Shown piece by piece: positions 20,981 through 64,000 of a DNA stretch of 64,000 nucleotides. Both the position numbers and the translations under genes were made by a program. Position 1 is the first letter of the stretch, and every line of letters starts with the position of its first letter. The stretch covers positions 21,204,001-21,268,000 of the forward strand of contig CM022679.1 of NCBI GenBank assembly GCA_012295275.1, read 5' to 3'. The notes beneath the pieces are model-generated. The model was given only the letters and a program-made list of their open reading frames with translations, ran no database searches and was not told the DNA's origin. The stretch is from Chrysomallon squamiferum. Taxonomy: Eukaryota > Animalia > Mollusca.

Positions 20981-21038
<58 letters not shown>

Positions 21039-21752
21039 AGATAGAGAGATAAACAGATAGATAGAAAATTGTAGATATATCTATGTATGTATGTATGTAT
21101 GTATGTATGTGCATATGAATATAATTATCTGTTTAGGTATTAGTATGTCGAATATAAGTATCTACATGTCTTTGAGATCTGAATATAACCCAGAAACTAT
21201 TTAAAGTTACTAGTTAAGACATTGAATCTTTTTCTTTTCCTTCTTTTTTTTTCTTTTAATGGCAGCTAAACTTGTAGCTATGGGTTGTGAATATAAACTT
21301 TGTTATTTAGCTTTTATATCCATAATGTCCACAGAAACTGACATTTATGAGAACAATGGAAAAATTGTCAAATACCTGAAATATCCAGTTTGATATTAAT
21401 GTACAGTAATGTGCCTCTATATTGATGACAGATGGTATAGTTTCTGCCTTTGTTTTTTTAAATATTTTTTTACTCGGCTGTATTTTTATTTTATTTTTTC
21501 TGTTAGGACATTTACCTATGCAGTTCACATGTTGTTAATAATGTCAGCACTGCAGTTAAATAACTATATATAGACATGGATATTCCAAGCGTGTGTGTGT
21601 GTGTGTGTGTGTGTGTAATTATGAGTCTGTAAATCATACATGCCCATGCACACACACCCTCATAGACAAATATATAGTTATTAAGATATATCATGATAAT
21701 GAACAATGACACACCTACACACACACACACACACACACACCCCTACATACAA

Positions 21753-21797
<45 letters not shown>

Positions 21798-27900: not shown

Positions 27901-30840
27901 AATAAGTATGTCATTTTTTATTTTTTACAAGTAGAAGGAAGACGAGAATTTTGTTTTTAAACTATTTTTGTGTGGAAATAAAGTGACGTTATTATTAATT
28001 AACAAACCATTTTATACATTTATAAATAATTCTCTTTAATATATATTTATATATTCATTTACATAACTTAGTAGTATATTCCATTACTCAATAACATTTT
28101 TTTTTTTTTAAACTGTTATGCTAAATGCTTTTCTAATACAAGCAGAAGTCCATGCTGCGGAAGTTTTACACATGTGCTGAGAAGTGAAACATTTTACACA
28201 CAGCTTTTAACCAAATGCATGTTTAATGTGGGCATATTATTGTGAAGTATTATTCAAAATGGGATTTTTTATTACTCTAGGGATATAGATCTTTTTAACT
28301 GGCTGTGGGGAACATGAATATTTTATAGTAAAATGTTGTTTTAAAAAGAAATTAGGCACGAGAGTGTATAAATACTGGGGTTATTTTTTTAACAGCTTTA
28401 AAGCAATGATGAATTTAGAAATTAGATGACATATAGAAAAGGAATTGTGAAATGTGTATGAAGATGAATATCTGTTATGTGCAGAACCAGCTGACTAAAA
28501 CATTATAATATAGAAGTGAAATGTATACCTTTGTTAATATTCCATTATTTAGTTTTTAGCAAACAGCTCTCAGTTTCTAAAATTAATCTTTACTAATGTT
28601 CATGTTTTAAACATAGCCTGTAATAGGGTATTTTGATTTGTAAAACAGAATTTGTATTTGTAAAAAGAGTATTTTGATTTATAATACAGTGTTTTTTATT
28701 TGTAATGGGGTGTTTTGATTTGTAATAGGGTATTTTGGTTTATAATAGGTATTTCAATTTGTAATAGGGTATTTTGATTTGTTCAAGAGTATTTTGATTT
28801 ATAATAGGGTATTTCGATTTGTAATAGGGTATTTTGATTTATAATAGGGTATTTCAATTTATAATAGGGTATTTCAATTTGTAATAGGTTGTTTTCATTT
28901 GTTCAAGAGTATTTTGATTTATAATAGGTATTTCAGTTTGTAATAGGGTATTTTGATTTGTTCAAGCGTATTTTGACTTGGGGAAACAGATTGTTATCTT
29001 TTCATTCCTGAATCATTAACAAACATTTCTCTTAACATAGTGTGTATTAGTAGTGATAACAGTACTTTTAAATTGTGAACATTTGTAACAGTAACAGTTC
29101 AAAGCTTTAAGACAAGTTGCTTGGACAGCTTTCTAACCATCAGTTCACCAGGCACTCCTCAGTACACCATTAATCACTAATGTTAACATTTAAACAAACA
29201 CACAAGTGCATTTTAAAAACTAGCTGAAATTTTTTTTTTTAAATGCTTATGTTTTAAAAATAACCCTATCTGTCCATTTTGTCCCTCCTGCCAAAGAAAA
29301 AGCCGTTATCATTTCATTTAAAGGCATAAATATTTTTATTAATCCAGCATATATCACATATATTTTATAATATTTGTCATTAATTTCTTTTTTAAATGAT
29401 TATTTGTGTATCTATATGTTGTTCAACACAAAAGGATTCAAATTTAAATATAGAAATATTTTTTTTTAATATTTACCTAATCAAGTATAGATAATACAAA
29501 CTGAAAAAATACAAGTTTAAATAGATAAAAAAAACTGAAAAAAAAGTGACTTCTACATTTTGTTATTATTTATATTCATTAAGATACATTATTTCATATA
29601 TTATTTACAAAATTAACAATGTTATATTATATTTCAAACTGTTACAAACTGCACTGTTTATTATTATTATTATTATTATTATTCATGAATAAAAGTAAAA
29701 TATACACATCTATTTTTCACTTACTATAATGCTAAATGTCATATTTATTTAATTCAAATACATATTTCCATATTTTTAAAAATTACCATGAAATTAATAC
29801 AAATGATATTAAATGTGTTTCATAATTGAATATTTCAGAGGATGATAGGACAAATGAGGCTCCTAAACATAGCCTGTGCAGCCAAAGCGAGGGTCCGTAC
29901 GATAACCCTCACACGTGCTACCAGAGAGGAAATTCTTCACTTTCAGATTCTTGGAGGTTTGGAGCGTGGCCATGGCATCTTTGTTACCAAAGTGGAAAAG
30001 GGATCAAAAGCATTTGATGCTGGTTTAAAACGTGGGGACCAGGTAAGAGGTTTTTTTTTTGTTAAATACATTCTAACCATAAAGCAAATGAATTTTAATA
30101 TGCAACAAATTAAAAAATAAATAAAAAAATAAAAAATAAAAAACAGTCAAAAAATTTATTTGTAGAATATTCATTTTACATTTGATTAACTTAAATTTTA
30201 GAAATATTTTTAATCTTGTAATTATTTCAGATTTTAGAGGTAAACGGGCACAATTTTCAGCACATTTCACACAACCGGGCCCTGGAGATCCTACGAGGAG
30301 CAACCCATCTCTCCATCATGGTCAAATCTAATCTCCATGGTACGTACTGTCATTTTAAAAAAAAGTGTTTTATCCTGGCAGACAGGTTTAATCAATAACT
30401 TCTATGACCAGTTACATTGTTAGTGTGTTAATAAAAACTATGTCCTTGATCTTGATGAATATTTTTTCACTTGTAATTATGTAAACTAAAGTGTGCATTA
30501 GTAATGTTTTGTTTTTTTATGAATTAGAGTGCAATAATTTTTAATTTATTACTATGAAAACATAATTAAATATTAAAATGTTTTCAGATATTAATGCTAA
30601 AACATTAAAAAAAATAATTTAAAAAAAAATGAAAGAAAGAAAATAAAAATAATATATTTATTTATTTATAAGACAATCTTGGATTAAGATTTGTTTGAGA
30701 ATTTTTTTTTTTTAAATTAATAAATTAATTCATTATTATTATTGTTATTGTTTTTGTTATTATCATCAGCATCATTATTATTAAATAATATTTTTATTAT
30801 TTTATTAATGAATTATTTATTTATTTATGTATTTATGTAT

Positions 30841-36619: not shown

Positions 36620-39600
36620 ATCAGACACATACATTATATCCTGCATCTGATTCACATAAAAACACACAATATTATCAATCAAATCATTGCTGTTGATAAA
36701 TTAACTGATATAATTAAAACAATTTAGTTTACCTCCAGCCAAGTTATAAACTTATTTAAACTCTTTTTTTTCCTTGTTTCAGTTTATTATTTGTTGTTCT
36801 GGAATGACTAATTCTCCTTTCATTTTAAAAACATGCATGATCCGTGTGATCTCCATTCCTCAGAATGTTTTTTTTTTTTTTTTTTTTTTATTATTTCTTT
36901 ATGTTTTAGCTTCAGTTTTCATTGTTGTCTTGCATGCTACATCCACAGCTATGGAGAAATTAGACTGCACCACAAAAATATTGGAAATGAAAGAAGAATT
37001 GTTTTTTAAATAAACTTTTTATTATTATTTTATCTTTTTAAATTCATTCTTAAGTTGAAATTTGTTAACTTTTTAAAGACTCCTTTATTTTATTATTATT
37101 ATTTTTTTTAATTTTATTTACAGATATAAGATAATAGAAATTAATAAATACATACTTGTAATTTAAGCACTTAGTTAACTTAACAAATTCAGTTAGATCA
37201 TAAACATTAATGGTAATGATGCTAAAGCAAAGCACAGTTAAATGAAACTATATATTTTAGTTACATTAGATATTAGTACCTAACTTACTTTAGATTCACT
37301 GGTAGGCACAATTCTAATTTCTCTGTGGGACAAGTTTCAGAATGTACGTTGTGTAATTCATATTAACAGAAAATATTTAAAATTTTCAATTTTCAGTTCA
37401 GTTGTATATGCCATGTCTAATATACAGAATTTTCATTCAGTTGTTAGGAACTGTAAACTTCTTTTCAAAATTTGTAAAAATTATATTATTCTTAAAACAG
37501 CTGCATAAAATACTATGGCTGTTTCTTTTGTGTCCTTTTGATTGACTGAAGCCTTTTAATATTTAAGATATTATTTATTGATATATATAAATTCTGTCAA
37601 GACAGATATCGTGTGTATTTATCCTTATATTTATAATTAAATAAATAATAATAATTTTAGCATAAATAATATTAGTGATAGAAAAATGATTAAGGAAAAA
37701 TTATACTGTTAACTGATTACACATGTACATTCTGAGCTTAATATTAATCATTATTCATCATCCATCCGCATGAAATAGCATGCAGATCAGATTAAAAATA
37801 ATAATAATAATAAAATAAAAGACATATTTTATTGTCTAACAATTTTTTTATAATGAATTTGAATTGAAATTTTGGTTGTTAAATCTGATCTGCATGCTGT
37901 ATTATTAAAGATTTTGGGAACAATACATTTTAGAAATTAAAAATTAATTCATTAACAAATATTTAAAAAAATAAAATAAAATAAAGAAATAATAAAAAAA
38001 AAAAATGTCCAACAATAATAATTATAATAATAACATAAATAATAACATGAACTTTCTGAAATGAGTTTCCCAAATTCTGTAGCAAACACACATACACATA
38101 CCTCATCAGTTATCCAAGCATAATGTGTGCGACACACAAAACAATCCCCTTGTAAAATGTTAGAAACTGGGACACCAGTCGGTCAGCTCGGGGCTAACAA
38201 TGTGTTAATTCTCCACTTGACTCAGGCGATCTTGTCCTCGTGTGCTCAGGTATTACCTCAAGAATAACCTGACTACGGACACCCTCGTTCCCGACGAGCT
38301 GATGGGAGAGCTGCTGAAGGAGAGCCAGATCAGCTTACTGCAGCTCAATTCAGGCGAGGTGGCATCCCAGCTCACCTTGGAGGACTTCAAGGCGTTTCGA
38401 GAGATGGAGCCCACGGAATACATCGACGATCTCTTTAAAATTGACTCCAAGTTTGGATGTCCTAATCAGAAGAAGTTTGCTGAGGTGAGGGAATGTTTTT
38501 CTTTCATTAATTTTATTTTATTTTATTCTGTTGTACTCTATTCTATTCTATTCTATTTATTTATATATTTATTTTATTTATTTATTTATTATGAAATTTT
38601 ATTTCATTAATATTATTTTTGATGATTTTAATTTAAAATGTTGGTAATATGTAGTTTGATTTTAATGTTCATAAACAAACGGAGTAGGCCAAACCACTAT
38701 AACTGAGCAGTTACATCACTTTGGTTTGATTTTAATTATGCTGACTTTTAATCAAAGCTTTTGTTACTATTGTGAATTTTGAATTTTGAATTTCTTTACA
38801 TAGAAGAAAGTTAATTCTGTCATTTAAAGATGTGATAAGTGTCAAAATCTGATCTGAATTACAGTGATTACATTTTTAAATATATATAAAAAAATAAATA
38901 AATATATAAATAAATAAATAAAAAGTGAACTGAATTTGGTAATAAGTTCTGTAAAATATACTTATTACCAAAAAAAAATAACAAACAAAAGTACAAATAA
39001 ATATGTCTGGGTTTTTTTTTCTAAATTATAATTTTAATTTCTTATTATTGTTGTTTTTCAAGTATTGGTTTTAATTGTTGGATTTTTTGTTGTAGCTGGT
39101 CAACCGAGAGATGTTCTGGGTAGTGACAGAGATTTGTTCAGAAACCAGTCTAGTCAAACGTGCAAAACTCCTCAAACATTTCATTAAAATAGCAAGTAAG
39201 TAAAACCAGCTCACACATCTAAAACTAATTTCAGCATATATATATATATATATGGATGTATGTTTCTAAAACGTAAATAAATATTTTGTCATTTTATTAT
39301 ATTTTATTTTATTTTAACTAATTTATTTATTTATTTATTTATTTATTATAAAATTTTATTCCATTAATATTATTTTTAAAGGTTTTAATTTAAAAGGTTG
39401 GTAATTGTTTAACTGTTTTATTCCACAGAACACTGTAAGGACTGTAAGAACTTCAATTCACTGTTTGCTATTCTCAGTGGTCTTGGACATCAGTCAGTGA
39501 CCAGGCTACACAACACATGGGACAAACTGCCCAGCAAATATCTCAAAATGTTTCAGGTAGTCAGTCACCTTCTCTCATTCACTTATTTTAACTTAGTTTT

Positions 39601-41777: not shown

Positions 41778-44700
41778 ATTGTTTATTTTATTAAGTTGTA
41801 ATAAAAACTAAAAACAGTTATTTTTTTGATTATTATTATTATTTATTATCATCAAATAATAATATTAAGATTTTGTCCTTTGGCATTCACTAGATGCATT
41901 TCCATGTTTGGTGCAGATTTTTTTTTTTTTTTTCACTTTGTTAATACAGAACTAAGCTGTGTTGTTGATATCAGTAACACAGTATTGATTATTTGTCTTA
42001 ATGGATATTTGAAAAGACTTCAGTCAATCTCAACATGTTCTGTTAACGATTTCTTCATTAGAAATTAGTTGATTTTTTTTTTTCCCAGCCTATCTTGTGA
42101 TTAACCCTTGAGCATTTGAAAAATTGTGTTTTATCAATAGTAGAATCTAATATATATTTCTGGTAATATTATTTTTTATTTTATTATTATTTTTTTAATT
42201 TCATTTAATATTATTATTATTATTATTTTCATGTGTTTATTTATTGTTATAATTATAATTAAGAATTAATTGATTGATTTATTGATTTATCAATAGTGGA
42301 ATTTTAAATATATTTTCAGTAATGTTACTAATGTTTTGGGGTTTTTTTTTTTTTTAATTTCATTCATGATTATTATTATTATTTATTTTAAAAAATCTTT
42401 ACTTTTATTATTATTTTCATTTATTTATTTATTATTATAATTATTTGTCATTATTAATTGACTGATTTATTGATTAATTAATTAGTAATAATAATTTTTT
42501 TCTATTTTTTTCTTTCTCTTTTCTTTTCTTCTTCCTTTTTATTTGGTTTCTTTTTAAATCCTACAACTTTATCCAGAGACTTATTTTTATCTGTTTGCCT
42601 TTAGAAATTATAAAAGTGTTTGATAAACTATTTTTATTATTTTTATTTTTCTAGGATGTAAGCAACATGTTTCTAGGATCCTCAGGAATGTTTTCTAGTT
42701 CTTTTGTTTCAAGTGTCGCAACATTAAAACGATCAAAGAACCGACGAGCTTCAACTCTTCCAAACCTGAAAAAAATGTATGAAGAGGTAGGTTGTCATGA
42801 AAATATGTGTCTCTCAGCTTTAAACTTATTTACTGTCTAGTTAGAAGTATTTGTGTTTATTAATATGTATTTGAAACAGGCAAGAAGATAACTGCAGGTG
42901 CAGTGATTAAATTTTAATGCAGTTTTAACTTGACTGGACTCTAGTTTTATTAGCACACCTCTCTGATATCTCATATTTTGCATTATTACAGTTTTATAAT
43001 AAGAAATTCATTAAACTGAAAATACTTAATATTAAAAATAAATCTAACTTTTTAACTTTTTTTAATTAACGTTTGATGATGCATACAAATAAATTAAATA
43101 TGTATTGCAAACATTTTAGTTAATGTTTTTGTCAGCCACATTCTTTATAATAAATTATTTAAATCAGTTTAAATTGAAAAATTATGCAGGTTAATTTTGT
43201 TCAGCCTATTTTTGTAACTGTTGGAAAATAAAACTAAGATAAAATTTGGTATTTGTTGTTACAGGCTCAGATGGTTCGGCGAGTGAAGTCTTATCTCCAG
43301 AACATGCAGATTACAACAGATGAAGAGAAACTGAAAGACATGTCCCACAGATGTGAACAGCCAGGTGTGTGTAATAACAGTAACAACCTGATGTTGCTAT
43401 TATTATTACTATTATTATTATTGTTACTGTTATTATTAATGTTGTTTTTTATCTTTAACATATGATTTTATTATTTTTGTTATTTTTAAATTACTATTAT
43501 TAGTGTTACAATTAATGTTTTATTTTTATATTAATAATAGATATGTGTTTATTGTTGTTATTTATAAAATTATTATTTTATTATACTGTGTCTGTTGCTG
43601 TCATAATCAAAGGTGTTTCTGTTTTACAGTAATTATCAGTAATGTACATTTTTATTATTATTTTTAAATTATTACAATTTTTTTATCACACTGTTATTAT
43701 TACTGTCATTATTATTAATGTTTTTTTGTCTGTTTGTTATTAATTTCAAAGTATGTTATTAATCATCCTAGTTAATGCTTTTATTTAAATCAGTATTGGT
43801 TTTTTTTTTATTGTAAAAGAAAAAAATATTTCACAATTGTGAAACCATTCTTAGACAAATTAAAATATATATATATAAAAAAGAAAAAAAAATATAATAA
43901 GAAGAAGTTAATAACTTTCAGTTTGTGCAGAACTAACTGCCATTGATTATTTTAATTGTGATTACTGATTCTGTTGTTGTTAATATTTGACTAAATAACT
44001 TTATATTTTTTGTAATTATTGTTGTTTTTTATCTTCAGCTCGTCGAAGAGACACCTCACCAAACATCCCTCAGGGCTCTCCTGGCCACAAGATAGACGAG
44101 ACTAAACTACTGCAGTCTGGACCCAAATTCGGTAAACACAACTAAATACAGTGAAACATGTTTTAACAGCTTCTGTTGCTAGAGTTATCTCATAACCCGT
44201 TTCTTTATTTCAGTAGAAAACATCTGCGATGGTTGCCCACTCCATTCAGCTAATAACAACTTTCGTTTTAAACAGTGCTGTATTTGTTATTGTTTCTATG
44301 AATTGTCAATGAATAGTGTTTCTTTTTCTTTCTTTTATTTTTTTTATTTTTTTTTTACTCCCAGAGCATGGATATTTTTCTTTTTAATCTAAAGTTCATA
44401 AATTAAAACTTCTGTTTTATTTTAATTTTTTTCTTTATATATTTTCTGCGATTGATTGTTGAATGATTTATTTATCGGTATTGTATCCCAGTAACCTCTG
44501 CATGGTTGTCATAGTAACCTATCAAGGGATTATTGGGGATTATCCAGCTTGAGGTTTATTTTACAATATGTGTACAATGTAAACAAAATGGTGGCAAGGA
44601 TTGTTTTGAAATGTTTGGCTGATTTTTGCTTCGTATTTTATCATTGTGTCATAAAATTATTTATTTTGATAAATAAACATGCATTTTTTTAATTTCATGC

Positions 44701-47700
44701 TGACAAATTGAAATTGGTATTTTTAAGGAATAATATTCTCTTATTAAAAATATTGTGTCCTGGTAGCAGACAATATCAATTCTGTTACACACAAAATACA
44801 AAGTTCTTACATTAAAGTGAAATTACACAGAATACTTTAATTCAGCTTATACACATAACACAAAACTGAAATCACACTGGTGTAGATCATTTGACAATAA
44901 AACAAATTGTGCACCACTTGTGAATACAGTTCTATTCTGTATTACATGGTAAATTAGGTACCCAAACTGCCTTAATAATACCAGTTATATTTTTGTAGTA
45001 TTTGTTACATTATAATATATTTTTATAGGTGAATGTGGCAAAAATATAAAGTAAAATACTCACGTTACATGAATTATGCATATTACAGTAATTCTGTTTA
45101 ATTTACTGCATTTGATCAGAAAAATAAAATAGTTTATTAATACTGCAATAATAATAATAATAATAAATAAATAAATAAATAAAATTTAAAAAATTATTAT
45201 TCTTTAATAAAGGACTTTAAAAAAAGAAAAGAAATAGTAATAATAATAATTATGAATAAATAGAGATGTAAAAAAAAAAAAAAAAAAAAAAAAATTACTG
45301 TATTTTAATAGTAACAGATTTCAAAAAAAAGAAGAAAAATATCAATTCAGTTACAAAATTATTGCTAATAATAAATATAAAATTGAGAAAATGAATCTAC
45401 ATATTTAGTGCCTGTTATTAACAATCTCTGTGTGTGGAATGATTAAAAACTATCCATCATCATCATTACCACCACCATCATCATCATCATCATCATCAAC
45501 TACATTAACTCAAGTTTGTGCTTTTTCTAAATTCTGTACAATTAATAACGAGATTTCAAAACTAGTCACAATGTCCAACAGAAACACATTGACGCCGACG
45601 AGGTTGCTGAAAATGTTAAATGCTGATGTCGCTGATCTTTTACCATCAGGTTCAGAGTCACCAGGGGCAGTTCGCAAGATCATGGCTTTGACGGACAAAG
45701 TTCGTCCTCATAACCCCAAAATTCCCGTTCCAGCAGTCACTAGCCCCATCTCGGGGCGCCGGGGCCAGACTTCACCCCGCCACGGGGCGAGGCTGCAGCA
45801 CATGGTACACCTGTCTCCTGAGAGCTCCTCCGTCATCAGTCTTAGTAACATGCATATAGGCAAGCCCATTCGAACGGGTAAGAATGGCCGCCACGTTTTA
45901 ACAGGCTTTCCCCTTGTTGTCAGTGGATGAAATTTGTTGTGTAAATATTTGAATGCTAATAGGAAAAGTAATAGGAATTTAGGATGTTTTTTTTTTTTTT
46001 TTGTGAATTAAATGTAAGAATGGTTTAATTATTGAAGATTTGAAATTAATATATTTATTTAATTTCGTTATGTTTTATTTATAGTTATTTCGTTCTTTTA
46101 TTTCATTTTATTTTTTTAAAATTTTAATTATTATTATTGTTGTTATTTTTGTTTATTTATTTAGTATTAAAAAAATCACAAAAACATTTGGGTGGTCATT
46201 TATCCTTTCCTTTAATGGAAAAAAACTAAAACTATTAATAATTTGCAAATGTATTACGAAGCCTTTCAATTTGATTGATATAAAAACTTTGATTCAGAAA
46301 TTAATTTTGAAAACAAAATAAACAAAAATAAAATAATTTTCATTTACACAAGGGAAAGCCCAGGCCAGTGCATGCATGGGGGATGCATGCTATGATCTGT
46401 TTTGTGTCGCTTTTGTGTTGCTTTGTGAATGTTTAGCTTGTTCTATCATTTATTTTCATTCTCTTATTGATTTTATAAAGCATTATTTTTTTTTTTTTTT
46501 TTTTCTAATTTCTGAAGTCATATTTGTGAGAAAGCCTGTCATTTACATTTGCTTTATGAATTTGAGAGCATTCCATTAATCACTGGATTTGGTACATTGA
46601 TTTTGTTTTTTTGTTTAGCCGAGAGAAAAATATCGACAGAGATTTGTTACAGATGTATAATAATGTCTGAATATTAATAATTTTTATAATAATAATAATG
46701 TTGCATCTGTTTAAAAAATATTTTTAATAATAATAATAATAATGAATAAAAGATAACAAAAAAAGAATAAATTAATTTTTAAACATATGAAAAATAATAA
46801 TATTACAAATGAAAAAAGATAATAAGATACACAAAAAATATTAAAATTAATAAATACTGTAAGAAAATAAAAGACAACAAAAAATTACATTGTAATTTTT
46901 TTTTTTTTTAATTTTAATAATTTCTGTTTATTCTGTATTATTTTCTTCTAATTTTTCAATTTCTGTCAGTTCATAGACATAATAATAAAAGTAATAGTTA
47001 AATAGTTTTATTTTCCTAATTTATTTGTATAATTTCTCAATATTTTATATAAGTATTATTTTTTTTCCTTCTTCTTTTAAAAAAAAGCAGGAGAAAGGGA
47101 TATAATTTGTGTCTGTGTCTGTGTCATATTTGTATTGTTCTACATAATATCTGTATATTAAACCAGTGATGTTTGTAATTCAGCATCTATAGGTTCTACT
47201 GACTCAGCGAGCCCCACAAACAGTGTGAAAAGTTACCAGCAGCAGAGCTCCTCCGAGACAGACTCGGGTCACTGCTTCGACAGCCACAGCAGCAGTTCCA
47301 TTGGCTCCTACAACTCTCCTCCAGAACTGAGAAAGGCTGGACAAGCAGGTACACACCGTTTCATAGTTAATTTTCCCATCTTTACATTTATATTTAGTTT
47401 AATATTTAATGTCGAAATAGTAGACACCACCATATGTTAGCAGGTTCACTGTATTTAATGCACACATTAGTTAAAGATATTTATTTAACTTTAAATTATT
47501 TACTTCAGATTTATATTTGGTTAATGTTTACTAATATTAAAACAGCAGATGCTCATACCTTGATTTGGAATAAAGTAGAAATTAGAAAATATTTTCTACA
47601 CTTACAAATTATGTATATCTTTTATTAATATTTATTGTTGAAACAGTAGATGACTCATACTTCTTAGATGTATGTTGTGTTGTCTGCATGTTTACATAGA

Positions 47701-49022
47701 ATTATTCAAGTTTGTTGTGGTCATGTTGTTACACAGATATGACATATGTTTTTAAAATTGTTAACAATTATGTTAAATATAACAGTTATGGAAACACTGC
47801 CAGTTTTGCATAATGAATGACACTGTAATTTAAATATTATTTATGTTATAATGTAAGTTAATATATTTAATTCTAAAATTATTCCTTGTCTAGAGATTAA
47901 AGGGTCTCATCTACCTAATGTTCATTATGCATTATTCACATAATATGTGATATATATAATATATTATTTTATTTATGGGTCCTGGTTAAATGTTGTTTTG
48001 TATTGAAATGGACAGTTATGCATGTTTTCTACAACTAACATGGAATGTTGAATGAAAATGAAAAAATATTAATTTATACTTATACAAGATTATGATTATT
48101 ATTATTATTATTGTTTATTTATTTATTATAAAAATAGTGACAACATTTTTATTTCCATTTCTTTTACTTGTATAAAAATAATTTTAATACATAATTTGTA
48201 TAAAATTATATTGTTATTTAAAAAATAATAATAATATGAATAATAACAAGCAAAGTCTCTTTGAAATAATTAAATTAAAGAAATCATGTATAAGCATGTA
48301 TGTCTGAAAATATTGATGTGTGTAATTATTATATTTTTTATTACATGCATGTTGTGGTTTTTATACATGCAGAGTCTGATCTAACATTTTCTGAAATTTT
48401 CATATTTATTACATTCAACTTGCATGTGTTTGATAAATTTACAGCAGTATCTTCTCTTTTTTTCGTTTTTAATTTTCGTTCACATTTCTCTGTGCTGTTT
48501 TTAAAACAGTTAAGTAATTGAAAAATTTCTTTTGTTGTTTTTGAGTAAGCATTTCTTCAATATTTCTTCAAATAGTAAAATAAATTTAAAATGAAAAAAA
48601 AAAAAAGAATAAAAAAAGAATAAACATAATAATAAGAAAAAACCCAATAATAAGAAACATTAATAAATTGTAAAGACTTTCTATTTTCTCTACAGGAAAC
48701 TAATTATATAGTTCAGCTTAAAAAAAGTAATATAGCCATAGTAACAAACAGTAAGTTGTTAAAAAATAAAAAAATAAAAATAAAAATAAAAATAAATAAA
48801 TATTTCAAAAAAGGAGAGGAAACAAAAAGAAGAAATGTGTCCCTGAATCAGTGAGAGAATGGAATAAAAAAAAAATATTTTTGTTTATTAGGTCAGAATG
48901 TTTCTTAATTAACAGTTAATTAATATGAGACATGTGTTTTGATATTAGTAATTTAAAAAGGGTGAAAACAAATAATACATTAAATATGCTACTTAAGTTA
49001 ACAACAACAAAAAAAAAAATAA

Positions 49023-49053
<31 letters not shown>

Positions 49054-49389
49054 ATGATAAAAAATTTAATAATAATAATAAGTTATAAAGTAAAATAATT
49101 ATTTACAGTTTTGTTATGCTGATATTTTTTCAACAGTATACAATAGCTTCCAGCACCATAGTTCTTCATTTCCTCAGTTACGTGGACGGCCACGCCCGCC
49201 GTCATACCACATCGTCATGCAAAACACAGTAATGTCTGCCCCCACAGGTGAGAGAGATTCACTTCTGTAAATAAAAATAAAAAAGTTGAAAGAAATTTCA
49301 AGAAATTAAACTTTATAAAATACCCAATAGATTTTTTGGTAATTTGTTTTGTGGATGATGAAATTGGTAAAAAAAAAAAAAAAAAAATA

Positions 49390-49432
<43 letters not shown>

Positions 49433-51358
49433 TTTATTTATTTATTTATTTATTTAATAGTAATAAATATAAGTAATAATACTGTTTTTCAATATCTTAA
49501 AGTTTCTTATTTTATGGTTCATACTTAAAAAAAATATTTTTATTATTTTTTTTTTTTTTAATCTCAACAGTAAGAGAAATAATTTTATTTTTTTAATTTT
49601 TTTTTTAGTTCTATATTTTATGTAAACCTGGTCATAAATAACAAAAACAGATATATTAAATTTTTTTTTATCATTTTATTGAAATGAAATGCAAATTTGT
49701 ACTACAGAATTGTAGAAAATATGAAACGAATTGAAATAAATAGCTAAATCAACAAAAATATATATATTGAAAATTAATATTGTATCCTGAATATGGAACT
49801 GAATGAGATTAATTACTTTAATCAGCCATACTGTATGAAAAGGAAATAGCAAAATAAAAAGCTAAAAATAATAATGAAGTTAATTTAAAGAATAATAAAA
49901 AATATATATATATATATATATATGTATCATTATATGAATCTAATTTTTGCTTTTTGCATGTATAACTAACTGTTTGATTGGGCATATATTTATGGTTTGT
50001 CTAAATATATGTGTTGTGTTTATACATTAGTTTTGTAACAGAAGAAAATGTAATGCATTTATTTTGCATGTTTGGCTGGAATGCATATTTTAATAACCAT
50101 TGTAAAAACCCACATTTAATGTACTATAATCTGATACGAGTTTTATATGTGTTTTCTTACATAAATATTTATGTAAAATTCATGATATATTGCTGTTTGT
50201 CATTTAAATAGAAACAGACCTGTTATTATTTGATAGCTATATTTTAATGTCCAGTTGTTGTTGTTTTTTGTGGGGGGATGTATTGTTTTTGTTTTAAAAA
50301 TGTATTGGTTTTTTGTTCAGCTATATTAGTCTGTACTTATATAACAAAAACAAATATTTATTACTTAAGCAGAAAATCAGTTTGATAAAAACTTTGATAC
50401 TCGGAAATTATAAAATAAATGAAACAGATATTTACGTTATGTTAATTTATTTTTATTTGTTTATTATTATTATTTTTTTATTATTGTTTACTTCTTTTTT
50501 TTTTAATTATTATTTATTTATTTATTTTCTTTGTAACTGATAATATTTGGGATAATAAATTTGCAGGGACATAACTGAAAGCATAAGTTTTAACATAAAA
50601 AAACAAAAACAAGAAAGATAAAGTTATAATATTTGGAAAAAAAGGTGTTTTACATAGTTCGATTAAGTTCTTATTATTATTATTATTATTATTACTGCTA
50701 TTGTTGTTGTTATTATTACTATTATCTTTGTTGTTATTATTGTTGTTATTGTTATTACTATTATTATTGATTAAAAAAATGTGATATTAAGGATGATTGA
50801 GTGTACATGTTAAAACTTCAGCAATGAAGTAATAATAAAAACTACTACTACTACTAATAAAAATAAAATATAAAGCCCAGCAAAAACAAAAGAAGATACT
50901 TCACTAAAGCTCGTTATTATAAATTTTGTACTAGCTCCAAGTCAGTTCATTGCCCCTGCAAGCTTCCCAGGACCTCGGCCACCTCTTCCCGACTACCAAG
51001 CAGCTACACAGATGGCACAACTGGCAAGACAGAAACAGCTGTGGAAGATGGAACACTTGCAGCCAAATGAAGCCTGCTATGCAAAAGGCAGTTTTATTCC
51101 TCAGGATGGAGAAGGTTGGTAAATACATTTGTGGAAATGTTTCAAAATTAAAACTGTCTGTAACTGCTGTGAAGATTAAAAAAATAATAATAATTTTCAA
51201 GTTCATTTCTTAACTATTGTTTTATTTTACAGTATTTTCAGTTTTTATTAATATTATTATTGTTGTTGTTGTATATGTGTGTATGTGTACATATATTTAT
51301 TTATTTATTTATTCATTCATTTTCAGATGTTGACCAAGAACAAGTGTCTGCTGTTTGA
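12001..51358 (+). CDS. RAPGEF2: Rap guanine nucleotide exchange factor 2/6-like (PDZ-GEF); spliced gene, 28 coding exons in window, 5' partial
   Basis: The exon chain has consistent phases and encodes family motifs: [128 protein letters not shown], and the C-terminus EQVSAV*. An invertebrate copy would be co-orthologous to vertebrate RAPGEF2 and RAPGEF6. Confidence 0.96.
13708..13867. repeat. (TA)n / (TG)n microsatellite
   Basis: Direct inspection. Confidence 0.95.
14198..14488. repeat. Tandem duplication, 136 bp x2, bounded by (GT)n
   Basis: gaagtaatttaaaagtcaaaa... starts at 14219 and 14355; copies are near identical. Confidence 0.92.
17065..17817 (+). repeat. Minisatellite, unit about 86 bp, about 9 copies, each containing a copy of the splice acceptor
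   Basis: Unit contains ttattatttgatttcag|attg(a/g)ctat; AGs end at 17098, 17386, 17471, 17557, 17643, 17729 and 17807 (the real acceptor). Confidence 0.93.
17808..17948 (+). CDS. RAPGEF2: PDZ-GEF exon IDYPEVQ...DSVIDQ
   Basis: tttcag acceptor, cag|gtataa donor, 141 nt, open, phase 0-0. Confidence 0.82.
18961..19194 (+). CDS. RAPGEF2: PDZ-GEF exon LPADLQ...[12 protein letters not shown]...[14 protein letters not shown]
   Basis: Long poly-T plus ccag acceptor, gtaaat donor, 234 nt; LPAD and VDSDEE motifs. Confidence 0.92.
20711..20815 (+). CDS. RAPGEF2: PDZ-GEF exon [16 protein letters not shown]...FMQHFR
   Basis: tttgcag / gtaaac, 105 nt, conserved motif. Confidence 0.95.
21715..21970. repeat. 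(CA)n / (CATA)n microsatellite cluster
   Basis: Direct inspection. Confidence 0.92.
23579..23769 (+). CDS. RAPGEF2: PDZ-GEF exon, cNMP-binding-like domain AFANMT...LIMGD(S)
   Basis: aaacag / gtagaa, 191 nt, phase 0 to 2. Confidence 0.95.
24579..24696 (+). CDS. RAPGEF2: PDZ-GEF exon FGITPT...[19 protein letters not shown]
   Basis: ttgcag / gtaaca, 118 nt, phase 2 to 0. Confidence 0.95.
24725..24826. repeat. Tandem duplication, about 51 bp x2
   Basis: aatatgatatttattaataaactgttaaacatgaaaggtaatctcttaagt occurs twice. Confidence 0.9.
25152..25256 (+). CDS. RAPGEF2: PDZ-GEF exon GEENT...RRGHIVIR
   Basis: cttcag / gtacat, 105 nt. Confidence 0.95.
25592..25756 (+). CDS. RAPGEF2: PDZ-GEF exon, REM domain GTPGRL...PMLRSK
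   Basis: tttcag / gtgagt, 165 nt. Confidence 0.95.
26950..27057 (+). CDS. RAPGEF2: PDZ-GEF exon, REM domain [17 protein letters not shown]...LLEKE
   Basis: tttcag / gtacat, 108 nt. Confidence 0.95.
27617..27634 (+). CDS. RAPGEF2: Candidate 18-nt alternative microexon PEGLDE
   Basis: tattttccag|cctgagggtctagatgag|gtaaga; phase 0-0 matches the host intron; no stop codon. Confidence 0.55.
28619..28980. repeat. 20-bp minisatellite (gtaatagggtattttgattt), about 18 copies
   Basis: Direct inspection; a variant unit gttcaagagtattttgattt is interspersed. Confidence 0.92.
29839..30042 (+). CDS. RAPGEF2: PDZ-GEF exon [17 protein letters not shown]...GLKRGDQ (PDZ domain, first part)
   Basis: tttcag / gtaaga, 204 nt. 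Confidence 0.95.
30231..30339 (+). CDS. RAPGEF2: PDZ-GEF exon ILEVNG...VKSNLH (PDZ domain, second part)
   Basis: tttcag / gtacgt, 109 nt, phase 0 to 1. Confidence 0.95.
30893..31142 (+). CDS. RAPGEF2: PDZ-GEF exon DFKEMLL...LPKNLNS
   Basis: cattcag / gtatgt, 250 nt, phase 1 to 2. Confidence 0.9.
31681..31918 (+). CDS. RAPGEF2: PDZ-GEF exon DGNN...SASNPDLS...[21 protein letters not shown] (start of RA domain)
   Basis: tttcag / gtcagt, 238 nt, phase 2 to 0. Confidence 0.93.
32086..32150 (+). CDS. RAPGEF2: PDZ-GEF exon [21 protein letters not shown] (RA domain)
   Basis: attcag / gtaatt, 65 nt, phase 0 to 2. Confidence 0.94.
32983..33090 (+). CDS. RAPGEF2: PDZ-GEF exon NYSLCEVTV...[20 protein letters not shown](R) (RA domain)
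   Basis: tttacag / gtatgt, 108 nt, phase 2 to 2. Confidence 0.95.
38250..38484 (+). CDS. RAPGEF2: PDZ-GEF exon YYLKNN...[10 protein letters not shown]...KFAE (start of RasGEF domain)
   Basis: gctcag / gtgagg, 235 nt; a second in-frame acceptor AG ends at 38225. Confidence 0.95.
39096..39195 (+). CDS. RAPGEF2: PDZ-GEF exon [12 protein letters not shown]...KHFIKIA
   Basis: ttgtag / gtaagt, 100 nt, phase 0 to 1. Confidence 0.95.
39429..39556 (+). CDS. RAPGEF2: PDZ-GEF exon [18 protein letters not shown]...KMFQ
   Basis: ccacag / gtagtc, 128 nt, phase 1 to 0. Confidence 0.95.
39660..39877. repeat. 47-bp minisatellite, about 4.6 near-perfect copies
   Basis: gattcatttactgtgaagtaatttgatttgttctgtttgaatcaatt starts at 39661, 39708, 39755, 39802 and 39849. 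Confidence 0.95.
40225..40555 (+). repeat. Degenerate tandem copies of the acceptor and exon start
   Basis: acag|gatcttca (40268), ccag|gctcttcagagtttgatg (40326) and acag|gttcttcaaagtttgat (40441) versus the true acag|gatcttcagagtttgatg (40537). Confidence 0.85.
40538..40621 (+). CDS. RAPGEF2: PDZ-GEF exon [16 protein letters not shown]...QPPM
   Basis: taacag / gtgtgt, 84 nt. Confidence 0.95.
41110..41256 (+). CDS. RAPGEF2: PDZ-GEF exon [13 protein letters not shown]...[16 protein letters not shown]...SARY
   Basis: tctcag / gtaagt, 147 nt. Confidence 0.96.
42655..42786 (+). CDS. RAPGEF2: PDZ-GEF exon DVSNMF...[15 protein letters not shown]
   Basis: ttctag / gtaggt, 132 nt. Confidence 0.92.
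43265..43364 (+). CDS. RAPGEF2: PDZ-GEF exon [11 protein letters not shown]...RCEQP
   Basis: ttacag / gtgtgt, 100 nt, phase 0 to 1. Confidence 0.93.
44039..44131 (+). CDS. RAPGEF2: PDZ-GEF exon ARRRDTSP...GPKF
   Basis: cttcag / gtaaac, 93 nt, phase 1-1. Confidence 0.85.
45650..45877 (+). CDS. RAPGEF2: PDZ-GEF exon [14 protein letters not shown]...LSPESSSV...KPIRT
   Basis: catcag / gtaaga, 228 nt, phase 1-1, GC-rich and open. Confidence 0.87.
46619..46654 (+). CDS. RAPGEF2: Candidate 36-nt cassette exon [12 protein letters not shown]
   Basis: ttttttgtttag acceptor, gtataa donor, phase 1-1, open. Confidence 0.4.
47184..47348 (+). CDS. RAPGEF2: PDZ-GEF exon ASIGSTDS...[14 protein letters not shown]...AGQA
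   Basis: attcag / gtacac, 165 nt, phase 1-1; a second in-frame AG lies 9 nt downstream (exon start 47193). Confidence 0.86.
49137..49247 (+). CDS. RAPGEF2: PDZ-GEF exon containing a PPSY (PY) motif
   Basis: caacag / gtgaga, 111 nt, phase 1-1; encodes [10 protein letters not shown]. Confidence 0.85.
50935..51114 (+). CDS. RAPGEF2: PDZ-GEF exon containing an LPDY motif
   Basis: tactag / gttggt, 180 nt, phase 1-1; encodes [11 protein letters not shown]. Confidence 0.85.
51327..51358 (+). CDS. RAPGEF2: Terminal coding exon [10 protein letters not shown]
   Basis: tttcag acceptor; EQVSAV matches the conserved class I PDZ-binding C-terminus of RAPGEF2/6; TGA is followed by TAA. Confidence 0.95.
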
Positions 51359-52090
51359 TAAGCTGTGAGCAGATTAATAACAAAAGTTTTAATAATAATA
51401 GTAATAATATTTATACTGGTGCAGTTGTATTGCAAACTGTGATAACATGACTGTCTTACCCATCTGGCATCCAGAAGACAACAATAATCCATGAGGAAAC
51501 ACAAAATAATATGACAACACAATACCTGAAACAACACATTAGATGTTTGTGACAACATAAAATATATCTAAGACCACAGAAAATATATCTGAGACAACAC
51601 AAAATCAATCTAAAAGATAGCAAATCTCATGAAGGATGTATAAATCATAAAATGTGGAATATATCAAAAAAATGTAGTCTAGGATACTACCAGAAAATAA
51701 AAAAAAAATCAAGTAAAAAAAATCAAATTGTGGAGACAATATAAAAACAGCAAGAAGAACCGCACCAAATAGTCCTGGACAAAACATAATACTGACTGCA
51801 AGACAGAATAATTGAGGGTGACAGTACAAAATGAAGTTGTGGAGTAAGCACAAATACAGGATACAAGATAATGAGAAAGACAAGTCATGGAAGGTTAAAA
51901 AAGAAAATCCTGGAAGCTAGTGTGACTGGTTGTTCTTCTGGAAAAATTTGGATGTTTCGTGACAGAAACGAAAAAGGAAAAACCAAATTGAAGTTTAAGT
52001 ATCAGGAGAATAGTTGATTAAAAGGAAAAGAAAAAAGAATACTTTTTAGTAATGTACAGATTGTTTTGTGAGGGTTTTTTTTTCTGGCAT

Positions 52091-52680
52091 AGGAGTGAAA
52101 TAAGCTGTTTGAAAATGAATTTTTATGATAAAGGAGTGAAATAAGCTGTTTCAGAATTAATTTTATTCTGACAAAGGAGTGAAATAAGCTGTTTCAGAAT
52201 TAATTTTATTCTGACAAAGGAATGAAATAAGCTTTTCAGAAAGAATTTGTCATTGCCAGGAATGAAATAAGATGTTTCAAAATTAAATTGACAATTGTCA
52301 GATTTGAAATAACATGTTTCAAGTGTAACTTGATTATTTCACAGAATGAAACAAACTCTCTTATGAAAAATGTGAATTGTCAGGAATAAAACAAACTGTT
52401 AGAATAATGAACAAATGTTGCCTATAAGGATCTGAATAGTTTTATTGATAACCTGATATTGACAGGAAAAAAAAAACAAAAACAATGTTTTAATGGTAAC
52501 TCCAGGTTGCTACAAAGAAACAAAACTGTTTTAATGACATTGCCAGATATGAAAGAATCTGGGTTTTTTTTACAATAACTTGACTCTGATAGGAATGAAA
52601 CTAAACATTTTACTGGAACAGACACAGTTTAGTGACTGAAGATTTGTGATAGAAAGAAATTGTTTTCAAAAGTGTGAAGC
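52091..52680 (+). repeat. Tandem repeat of 40-43 bp in the 3' UTR, decaying toward the 3' side
   Basis: aggagtgaaataagctgtttcagaatt... starts at 52091, 52132, 52175, 52218 and 52258, then degenerates. Confidence 0.8.
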
Positions 52681-60956: not shown

Positions 60957-61508
60957 TACGTATATAATGTATGAATGTATGTATTTATGGACAAATATAT
61001 ACGATAAACGTGTGACTATGTATGTATATGTGCATATTTCTATTTCTTTCTCTGTTTATGTATGCACCTAAGCATACCTGTAAGTATCTATGGGCATATA
61101 TTTGAGTCTGTCTCTGTTTGTCTGTCTGTCTATCTATCTGCATTTGGTTATCGTGACATAACTGACACAGGCAACCGTTCACGTGAAATGCCTTTAAACA
61201 AAGAAGCGACCAGGAACGTTATTCCGGCTAATGCTTATACAAAAAACGGCTGCTCTGTAAAGCGATGTCGTACTGCAAGACGTACTTTATTTCTCTTTGT
61301 CTTTGTAAATGAGATGTTTGCCCCGGCTTGTGAAGGTTTCAAGCACGTATAGCTCTGGGAATTGGAGGCTGCAAACTAGGAGAGCTGATACATTTTTCTA
61401 TTCCTTTGATTTCGTTGTCTTTGCACAGATACTGAATTTGATTTAACGTTCGATTTGCGCAGCGTATAAAAATTGCATGCAGGTTGGACGAGAATTAGGG
61501 GGCGTGTA

Positions 61509-61546
<38 letters not shown>

Positions 61547-61638
61547 GTGTGTGTGTGTGTTTGTATTAACGTGTGTGTGTTTATAGAGAAGGAATAGAAT
61601 AGAATTTTTTTATTAACAGATATACGGTCAGATTGTCA

Positions 61639-61683
<45 letters not shown>

Positions 61684-61684
61684 T

Positions 61685-61687
<3 letters not shown>

Positions 61688-61767
<80 letters not shown>
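61688..61767. repeat. (GA)n microsatellite; many further (CA)n, (TAA)n, (TAG)n and (CATA)n tracts lie between 58800 and 63310
   Basis: Direct inspection. Confidence 0.95.
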
Positions 61768-61771
<4 letters not shown>

Positions 61772-62157
61772 ATATATATATGGCTGGACATACAGACAGA
61801 AAGAGAGATATACAGACAAAAACGTCCCCCAGAGTCTATTCTGTTACCTATATAAACTTGATATTTTCATGAATAATGGATCAGTGTCTCTGCACTGTTT
61901 GATACAAGGAAAGCGCTGGAGAAGGGACATTATTCTGGAGATGTCAGCACATTTGTTCTTCAGACAGAACGTAAATCAAAGGCGAATTGGAGATTGGTCA
62001 GAAACGTTCGTCCAAAAGGGCAGACGTTCTGGAACATTCTTTTAAAATCGTCTTGATTGTGTAAAGGTTGGGAAAACGTTTTAAATTATTTAGTTTAATC
62101 TGTTTCAGTCTTCCACTGGCAATTGATGAAGGAGGGTGGTATTAAAAACAATTAACC

Positions 62158-62189
<32 letters not shown>

Positions 62190-64000
62190 TTAAAAGATTG
62201 TAGCAACCTTAACAACAACAGCAACAGTGACAGGAAATGATGTAGAAATATAATATTGAAAAAGTATTTAAACAGAAAATGATATATAGGTAGATAGATA
62301 AAGAGATAGCTAGAAACAGCTGTTAGATAGATAGTTAGAAAGATGGATGGATGGATGGATGGATGGATAGACAGATGGGTAAATGAATGAGAAGAGAGAG
62401 ACAGAGAGAGCCTAAAAAAAAACCAAGAACCTTCCCCACCCACAAAACAACCCCCAAAGAAAAATACTACAAACAAACAATAACAACAAATAAGTTAAAA
62501 CTCTTACATTTTAATCAACAGTCTGAAGCGATGTTTTTTACGTATTTTTAAAAAACGACTGCATCTTTCACGTTACGTGCAAGTGAACAGTTTGCGAGGC
62601 GAGCGAGGACAACAAAATGCTGGAACACAGGAGTCTGAAAACGGAGATCCCCGTGGGAACAATAACTGTGCCGAGTTACTGATTGAGTGCTTTCCTCCTG
62701 CACCGCAATCAGAATTTCTAACTAACCCAGCCGAAGCCAAATAAAGGATCCTCGCAACTGCCAGTCGCACCTACTTAACAGCGCTGCCGTCTGTTTTTAC
62801 TGCAGCCGTCGCTAATAAACGCTTCTAATCGACTCTCTGTTGAGTGTTTATGATGTCATATATTTCATTATCGGCCGAATAATAGAACAACATCTGCAGA
62901 GAGGCTGCTTGACGTAAAACTTTACAGTTGCGTCTTCTCATCACGGTGAAGTGATTTTGAAGTTCTTGCTGATGATCATGGTTATGTCAGAGATTATTTT
63001 TTTTTATAAATGTCTGTGTAGTTGTTACGTTTGTTGCTGGGGTATAATCTTTCCTAAAAATAAAATATGACGACTGTAAAGCAACACTACGTAGAAACAT
63101 ACCTGCATCCAGACAGAGAGGTGTGTACACTGGTACAAATATCAGTCCATCGATAGATCATCCATGTGTACGTACATATACATACGTACTTAATTAATAC
63201 GTACACGCCAAACATAAATATATACATACACACATACACTCACATACATACATACATACATACATACATACATACATACACTCACATACATACATACATA
63301 CATACATACACAGTTAGACAGACACAGACTACATTATATTAATGATAGGATAAACCTACGTTATATCTGTACAGCAAAGCCTTTTTCTTGTTATAGATTG
63401 AGAACGCCAAGAGCGATGATGTATTTAATATGAAATGTAAATGACAAGAAACGAGTCAATTTCTTGTATGTTGGGATATTGAACACCGTTATTGATTGTT
63501 TGGTTCCTTTTAGCGTCCTTTGTCACGGCTTGGATTAAAGACACAAGCTGAAAACTGTCGCCTCAAATGTCCATTGTGTTCAGCGTCGAGTCTGTTTGCG
63601 AAATACTTTTCAAGAAAGACCACATAGCACGCATCGTTTAAAAAATAGAAATAGGAAATGCTACAACAGACAATTCGTGAATTTTGCATTGTTGTTATTT
63701 ATTTATTTACTTATTTATCTTCATTATTTTAAAAATTCTATCAAATTCCGATATGCATATGTTTATGCTGTGTGTGTGTATTTAGATATGTCTTTATGTG
63801 TATTTATTATTAATTTATTTTTAAAAATAATATTCTCATTTTATCTCTAGGGATTAGAGCTGATTTAGAGTTCACATTGTATGAATAATACAATATGTTT
63901 GGTTCTAAAGTTAATTAGCTTCTGCAGTATCTATTTATGTATGTTTGTATGAATGTATGTAGGTACGCATGTACGTACTGTATAAATAAGAATGTATTAC

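What the first reader, a model, noticed from the sequence alone, without database searches (positions are those of the whole stretch)
45885..46654. RNA bridge delivering a triple-TGCATG cluster to a 5' splice site, with a competing second partner
Seen: ggctttccccttgttgt (45904-45920), 26 nt after the donor at 45878, is complementary to acacaagggaaagcc (46346-46360; 15 bp, two 1-nt bulges). tggcc (45885-45889) can also pair with ggcca (46363-46367). Three TGCATG follow immediately (46369, 46373, 46384) and themselves form a gcatgcat/atgcatgc hairpin. The overlapping acaggctttc (45901-45910) alternatively pairs perfectly with gaaagcctgt (46530-46539), which would loop the TGCATG cluster out and bring the donor close to the candidate exon at 46619. 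Known: Rbfox binds UGCAUG, and distal sites can act through RNA bridges. Inference: a two-state switch acting on the symmetric C-terminal exons.
Basis: partly seen in the sequence, partly recalled or inferred. Interest (0 to 1): 0.78.

Follow-up and report, generated by a model that had tools for sequence, protein, structure and literature searches.

The report
Candidate Rbfox RNA bridge in snail
In a snail RapGEF2/6 signalling gene, three Rbfox-type motifs lie about 500 bases behind an exon that gene models of ten mollusc and brachiopod species sometimes skip, and a predicted RNA helix would bring them next to that exon, a likely but untested invertebrate case of a splicing device known from mammals.

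Summary
The gene is a gastropod RapGEF2/6. The donor at 45878 ends a 228-nt in-frame exon (45650-45877). That exon is skipped in 14 of 141 homologous protein models, from 10 species including a chiton and a brachiopod. The TGCATG cluster (+491 to +506) is therefore in the classic Rbfox enhancer position. Helix A is longer than reported (28 bp, -30.5 kcal/mol). It is reached by 1 of 491 shuffles with the motif hairpin masked, 32 of 459 unmasked, and 9 of 98 GC-matched real windows: suggestive, not proven. Partner B is at chance level, and the tggcc/ggcca pairing is not predicted. The 46619 exon is absent from 3 of 3 RNA runs and from 123 of 123 clear homologous junctions. The hairpin is predicted to hide all three motifs. 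No close orthologous intron was obtainable, so covariation is untested. Verdict: a plausible single Rbfox bridge for an ancient cassette exon (about 40%); the two-state switch onto exon 46619 is not supported.

The parts
44039..44131 (+). upstream exon (93 nt, phase 1-1) of RapGEF2/6
   Evidence: tblastn to Gigantopelta isoform X1; RNA contigs X1-X3 join it to 45650
45650..45877 (+). cassette exon, 228 nt = 76 codons, phase 1-1, proline/serine/basic-rich C-terminal segment; likely target of the element
   Evidence: GT..AG joint from 44131 and direct continuation into exon 47184 in 3 of 3 RNA runs; skipped in 14 of 141 homologous protein models from 10 species
45878..45886 (+). 5' splice site of the cassette exon; strong for this gene (10.7 bits, range of 20 donors 2.2-12.1)
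45904..45938 (+). 5' arm of predicted helix A (bridge), starting 26 nt after the donor
   Evidence: duplex and ensemble folds
46332..46360 (+). 3' arm of predicted helix A, ending 8 nt before the first TGCATG
   Evidence: not repeated elsewhere in the window
46369..46390 (+). three TGCATG (two overlapping) around a run of five G; predicted 8-bp hairpin that pairs the motifs
46398..46430 (+). GU-rich tract directly after the cluster; predicted local alternative partner of the 3' arm when helix A is absent
   Evidence: sequence; folds
47184..47348 (+). downstream exon (165 nt, phase 1-1)
   Evidence: its first 30 letters follow 45877 in RNA contigs of X1, X2 and X3; tblastn

Best explanation
The TGCATG cluster is likely an Rbfox-type splicing enhancer for the upstream 228-nt exon 45650-45877, and a predicted 28-bp helix would bridge it to that exon's donor. 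Shown: the exon is spliced in (RNA contigs) and is skipped in gene models of ten related species; three UGCAUG, a G-run and a GU-rich tract lie 491-550 nt downstream. Predicted: while the intron is being transcribed, 45904-45938 pairs with 46332-46360 (probability about 1.0 in folds that end before 46530), which cuts the path from donor to first motif from 491 to about 35 nt. Inferred: Rbfox, probably with G-run and GU-binding cofactors, must open the local hairpin (about 8-11 kcal/mol for one site, 11-13 for two), which would make the enhancer respond only to high Rbfox levels, as in nerve or muscle. Binding then promotes inclusion of the 76-residue segment; without it the exon is skipped in frame.
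For: Exon identity and inclusion. Conserved skipping in 10 species. Cluster beyond block shuffles, 0 of 2000, and the only triple in the window. Helix A ranks first (25-nt query) or second (35-nt query) of 26 donor-proximal searches in this gene. It is reached by 1 of 491 shuffles when the hairpin is masked. No shuffle both matched its energy and ended just 5' of the cluster (0 of 459; 3 of 709 at 25 nt). The sense strand pairs better than the antisense strand (-31.6 vs -26.8). [quoted passage not shown]
Against: No covariation or conservation test was possible. The only orthologous DNA found, an annelid contig, has an intron of about 120 nt with no TGCATG. 9 of 98 GC-matched intronic windows of this same window hold an equally strong duplex. 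With the cluster unmasked 6-7% of shuffles match helix A, and 88% pair at or near the cluster, because both ends are the only GC-rich islands in an AT-rich intron. The masking and the 35-nt query were chosen after seeing the data. The motifs are predicted paired (unpaired 0-0.17 in 10 of 11 folds), and structure inhibits Rbfox binding (PMC4872098). In longer folds helix A falls to 0.01-0.47. Skipping was not seen in this species (0 of 3 RNA runs, contigs only, 32 loose ends not shown). The donor is strong. TGCATG is frequent on both strands. Rbfox itself was not looked up in this animal.
Confidence: 0.4

Rival explanations
1. The cluster is a real Rbfox enhancer of exon 45650-45877 but acts without a bridge; helix A is a chance pairing of two GC-rich islands.
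For: About 9% of GC-matched windows have as strong a duplex. At +491 to +506 the sites lie at the edge of the 500-nt range in which Rbfox maps are drawn (PMC11874969). Known bridges span far more (over 10 kb in the passage of PMC6027157).
Against: The helix avoids the motifs and ends right beside them (0 of 459 shuffles do both); 1 of 491 with the hairpin masked.
Confidence: 0.3
2. Nothing here is functional: the cluster is a by-product of palindromic TGCA/GCATGC words (a 4-nt tandem copy plus an inverted copy) and the helices are chance; the exon is regulated by something else.
For: TGCATG is 2-4 times commoner than words of like composition on both strands (23 and 16 vs 4-10). 7 of 33 copies in the window overlap an antisense copy. 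The local fold has z -0.61. The hairpin follows from the palindrome. The annelid intron has no motif.
Against: The only triple cluster in 64 kb sits behind the exon that relatives skip, with a G-run and a GU tract beside it.
Confidence: 0.17
3. The structure is real but inhibitory: the hairpin and its local extension over the GU tract lock the module shut, and helix A mainly shortens the intron or hides donor-proximal elements, which would favour skipping or tune kinetics.
For: Hairpin probability 0.98-1.0 in 10 of 11 folds. Without helix A the 3' arm closes over the GU tract (0.9). In SCN9A a bridge with Rbfox2 suppresses an exon.
Against: The exon is included in all three RNA runs; downstream position usually activates.
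Confidence: 0.08
4. One reading: a two-state switch in which helix B loops the cluster out and brings the donor to a 36-nt exon at 46619-46654.
For: A and B are exclusive and within about 2-3 kcal/mol in ensemble energy, B slightly ahead in longer folds. The 36-nt stretch is one of only 2 such open symmetric candidates in 27.8 kb of intron, though the thresholds were set by the candidate itself. Contigs drop rare isoforms.
Against: 45877 is followed directly by exon 47184 in 3 of 3 RNA runs. 0 of 123 clear homologous junctions carry an insert, including 9 Gigantopelta isoforms. Its donor scores 2.3 bits, at the bottom of the range. Helix B is at chance level. B's share depends strongly on window ends and temperature (0.01-0.83).
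Confidence: 0.05

Closest known systems
Rbfox RNA bridges of mammalian ENAH exon 11a and KIF21A (Lovci et al. 2013; known here only through passages of PMC6027157, PMC10790352 and bioRxiv 10.1101/2025.08.16.670673)
   Same: Distal downstream UGCAUG beside one arm of a long-range duplex whose other arm lies near the donor of a cassette exon.
   Different: The span is about 0.45 kb rather than kilobases; the animal is a mollusc; conservation and function are untested; the motifs here are predicted to sit in a hairpin.
SCN9A exon 5b ISRE1/ISRE2 bridge with Rbfox2 (bioRxiv 10.1101/2025.08.16.670673, passages)
   Same: Complementary intronic elements with an Rbfox site immediately beside the distal arm.
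   Different: There the exons are mutually exclusive, Rbfox2 suppresses, and compensatory mutants proved the pairing.
Rbfox/LASR multipart modules (PMC11874969, passages); C. elegans egl-15 ASD-1/SUP-12 element
   Same: [quoted passage not shown]
   Different: The cofactors are not identified in molluscs; no binding data.
Competing docker/selector structures (Dscam, 14-3-3zeta, ATE1; PMC10790352, passages)
   Same: One arm with two possible partners.
   Different: No duplicated mutually exclusive exons here; the second partner is at chance level and its supposed exon has no support.

Membership tests
RapGEF2/6 (PDZ-GEF) gene | orthology and exon order along the full protein | tested here: met
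   93% identity to Gigantopelta RapGEF6-like over the matched exon; 28 collinear matched segments to the end of the protein
Rbfox RNA bridge | target is an alternatively spliced exon | tested here: met
   met in relatives: skipped in 14 of 141 protein models from 10 species; read support for those models not seen; skipping not seen in this species
Rbfox RNA bridge | distal downstream UGCAUG site(s) | tested here: met
   three sites at +491, +495 and +506; at the edge of what counts as distal
Rbfox RNA bridge | long-range duplex with one arm near the exon and the other beside the site, stronger than chance | tested here: inconclusive
   geometry met; chance rate 0.2% to 9% depending on the control
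Rbfox RNA bridge | evolutionary conservation or covariation of both arms | not testable with these tools
   no genome held; scans gave one annelid locus with a short intron and no motif and nothing else
Rbfox RNA bridge | motif accessible to the Rbfox RRM (single-stranded) | tested here: not met
   prediction only: unpaired probability 0-0.17; opening costs 8-11 kcal/mol per site; Rbfox can break pairs near its motif, so this lowers but does not exclude function
Rbfox RNA bridge | Rbfox binding and dependence of splicing on the pairing (CLIP, knockdown, compensatory mutants) | not testable with these tools
   needs experiments
competing-structure (docker/selector) switch | second partner stronger than chance and tied to a used alternative exon | tested here: not met
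known RNA family (Rfam) | covariance-model match | tested here: not met
   0 matches at E up to 1 in 46200-47183, which holds the 3' arm and cluster but not the 5' arm

The most novel reading that the evidence does not exclude
A co-transcriptional, Rbfox-gated RNA switch in a mollusc. Helix A forms first and parks a hairpin-locked Rbfox/G-run/GU module 35 nt from the donor. If Rbfox opens the hairpin in time, the ancient cassette exon is included. If not, arm B (46530-46539) emerges, takes the 5' arm, and frees the 3' arm to close over the GU tract (predicted 0.9), sealing the module. This would be an Rbfox bridge outside vertebrates, with a built-in timer and threshold, controlling a skipping event shared by molluscs and brachiopods.
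Probability: 0.1. Interest if true: 0.72.

Novelty: new member of a known kind. Interest (0 to 1): 0.4.

Why it matters
The Rbfox bridges in the papers read here are all vertebrate. A short (0.45 kb), compact case in a gastropod would show that the device is older or arose again, and it would fit in a small minigene. Independently of the bridge, the session shows an in-frame skipping event of a RapGEF2/6 C-terminal exon shared by gastropod, cephalopod, bivalve, chiton and brachiopod gene models. That points to an old, so far unexplained isoform switch in Rap1 signalling. Ten searches (listings only) showed no paper on this exon or on a molluscan Rbfox bridge; the library lacks most subscription papers.

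Tried and rejected
No whole genome is held. Orthologous intron DNA: the metagenome scan gave 1 locus of 29 pattern matches, an annelid with a short intron; the prokaryote-genome and viral scans gave 0 of 15 and 0 of 20. An acceptor at 45566 was first assumed for the cassette exon and rejected (homologues and RNA give 45650). A transposon origin of the arms: no other copy in the 64-kb window, not testable genome-wide. An alternative register in which 19 nt of the 3' arm pair perfectly with two separate 5' segments exists but has probability 0.0 in the folds. Rfam: no match. The Gigantopelta 12-residue segment after exon 47184 was sought in 47341-49250 and not found. The donor positions in 39 and 64 are approximate for a few exons, and one wrongly placed donor was dropped (27 rows, 26 counted). 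A local alignment of the 36-nt candidate's peptide against homologues was not run. Lovci et al. 2013 is not held. No paper on Drosophila dizzy splice forms was found. Earlier-findings look-ups were empty.

Full report
Setting. The window is AT-rich animal DNA (GC 0.20-0.34) and holds a RapGEF2/6 (PDZ-GEF) gene on the + strand. The exon before the finding matches Gigantopelta aegis RapGEF6-like at 93% and Haliotis at 82%. The Gigantopelta protein maps collinearly from about 12000 to the stop near 51358. The animal is therefore a gastropod close to Gigantopelta (inference). No whole genome is held.

Observation. All coordinates check out. The energy model extends helix A to 28 bp, 45904-45938 with 46332-46360, -30.5 kcal/mol with three G-U pairs. 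The three TGCATG lie at +491, +495 and +506 from the donor, around a run of five G and before a GU-rich tract. The tggcc/ggcca pair has probability 0.07 or less in 11 of 11 folds.

Which exon is regulated. The exon that ends at 45877 starts at 45650 (228 nt, phase 1-1). In RNA runs X1, X2 and X3 a GT..AG joint links 44131 to 45650, and the letters after 45877 are the start of exon 47184 in 3 of 3 runs. These are contigs, which drop rare forms; 32 loose-end rows were not shown, and the laid stretch ended at 46050. I examined 141 full-length homologous protein models by eye (50, 91; the clusters were listed in part: Haliotis 15 of 30, Mytilus 15 of 84, Octopus 15 of 17, one scallop cluster 15 of 26). 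Fourteen skip exactly this exon: Gigantopelta aegis (1), Haliotis rufescens (2), H. asinina (1), Littorina saxatilis (1), Aplysia californica (1), Patella caerulea (1), Octopus bimaculoides (3), Mytilus edulis (2), the chiton Liolophura sinensis (1) and the brachiopod Lingula anatina (1). No skipping was listed for scallops, Babylonia, Lineus or Tubulanus. Three rows were uninformative (P0119, P0153, P0158) and one has a garbled exon end (P0011). The other 123 join the cassette directly to the next exon, with no insert. These are annotation models whose read support I did not see. It is one of 2 such candidates in 27.8 kb of intron under thresholds set by itself, so a rare, species-specific microexon is not excluded, but nothing supports it.

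Chance tests. Cluster: 0 of 2000 block shuffles of the intron give three sites within 21 nt, and it is the only triple in the window; but TGCATG occurs 23 times sense and 16 antisense in the gene region against 4-10 for words of like composition. Helix A, 25-nt query: 46 of 709 shuffles of the donor-proximal 65 nt and 15 of 503 block shuffles of the target reach it. 35-nt query: 32 of 459, of which most pair onto the GC-rich cluster itself (399 of all 459 do), and none both reaches it and ends just 5' of the cluster. With the hairpin masked, 1 of 491. Among 26 donors of this gene it ranks first at 25 nt and second at 35 nt. Against this, 9 of 98 real GC-matched intronic windows hold a duplex as strong (12 of 92 at 25 nt), and the favourable controls were chosen after the fact. 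Helix B: a perfect 10-mer arises in 8-13% of shuffles and in 21 of 159 GC-rich real windows. The best duplex left once arm A and the hairpin are masked is matched by 245 of 491 shuffles.

Folding behaviour (prediction only). In folds that end before arm B, helix A has probability about 1.0 (5 of 5). When arm B is included, at 37 C A is 0.01-0.47 and B 0.15-0.83 depending on the window ends; at 5 C A returns to 0.98. With B forced, the freed 3' arm closes over the GU tract with probability 0.9. The motif hairpin has probability 0.98-1.0 in 10 of 11 folds. Opening one site costs 8-11 kcal/mol and two sites 11-13. The local 116-nt fold is not unusually stable (z -0.61).

Mechanism. Best reading (0.40): an Rbfox-type downstream enhancer of the cassette exon, brought from 491 to about 35 nt of path by helix A during transcription and gated by the hairpin. 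Shown: exon structure, inclusion, motif layout, and skipping in relatives' models. Predicted: the helices. Inferred: Rbfox binding, direction of effect and tissue pattern.

Conservation. Not testable. The one orthologous locus, L001, whose exon reads like the named annelid protein P0085, has an intron of about 120 nt without TGCATG or arms. It is too distant to refute a gastropod element, but it shows the element is not universal. Other scans were empty.

Literature seen. [quoted passage not shown] Lovci et al. 2013 was not available. Ten searches (listings only) showed nothing on this exon or on molluscan Rbfox bridges. No supplements were read. That Rbfox is enriched in nerve and muscle of molluscs is an extrapolation from other animals and comes from no call.

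Verdict. It works like an Rbfox RNA bridge in layout. Membership is not established: conservation and function are untested, and accessibility fails in prediction. Candidate new member of a known kind, interest 0.40.

Noticed in passing
window 45409-45659: Run X1 has a contig over 45510-45659 at depth about 27, well above other intron cover (about 5), and the reading frame is open from 45409 into the cassette exon; X2 and X3 lack it. It may be an upstream extension or an internal start. The X1 allele differs at 45564, within the in-frame AG before 45566. Octopus, Mytilus and Lamellibrachia models carry extra segments just before this exon.
   Followed up: no
window 27058-29838, about 38224-38250, 49137-49247, 50935-51114: Further segments are alternative in several molluscs: a 6-residue and an 8-residue segment and the two exons before the last. 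Their flanking introns hold 2, 5, 4 and 2 scattered TGCATG.
   Followed up: partly
window 18021 and 18050; 11087 and 11123: Pairs of TGCATG, the first 72 and 101 nt after the donor at 17949.
   Followed up: no
window about 21000-21790; about 61105-62390: Very strong long-range inverted matches (-67.5 and -44.9 kcal/mol for 35-nt queries), possibly transposon remnants; the first lies in the intron after donor 20816.
   Followed up: no
window about 52090-52400: Imperfect direct repeats of roughly 40-45 nt after the stop codon, seen by eye.
   Followed up: no
L001 1150-1272: The annelid orthologous intron is only about 120 nt and has no TGCATG.
   Followed up: yes
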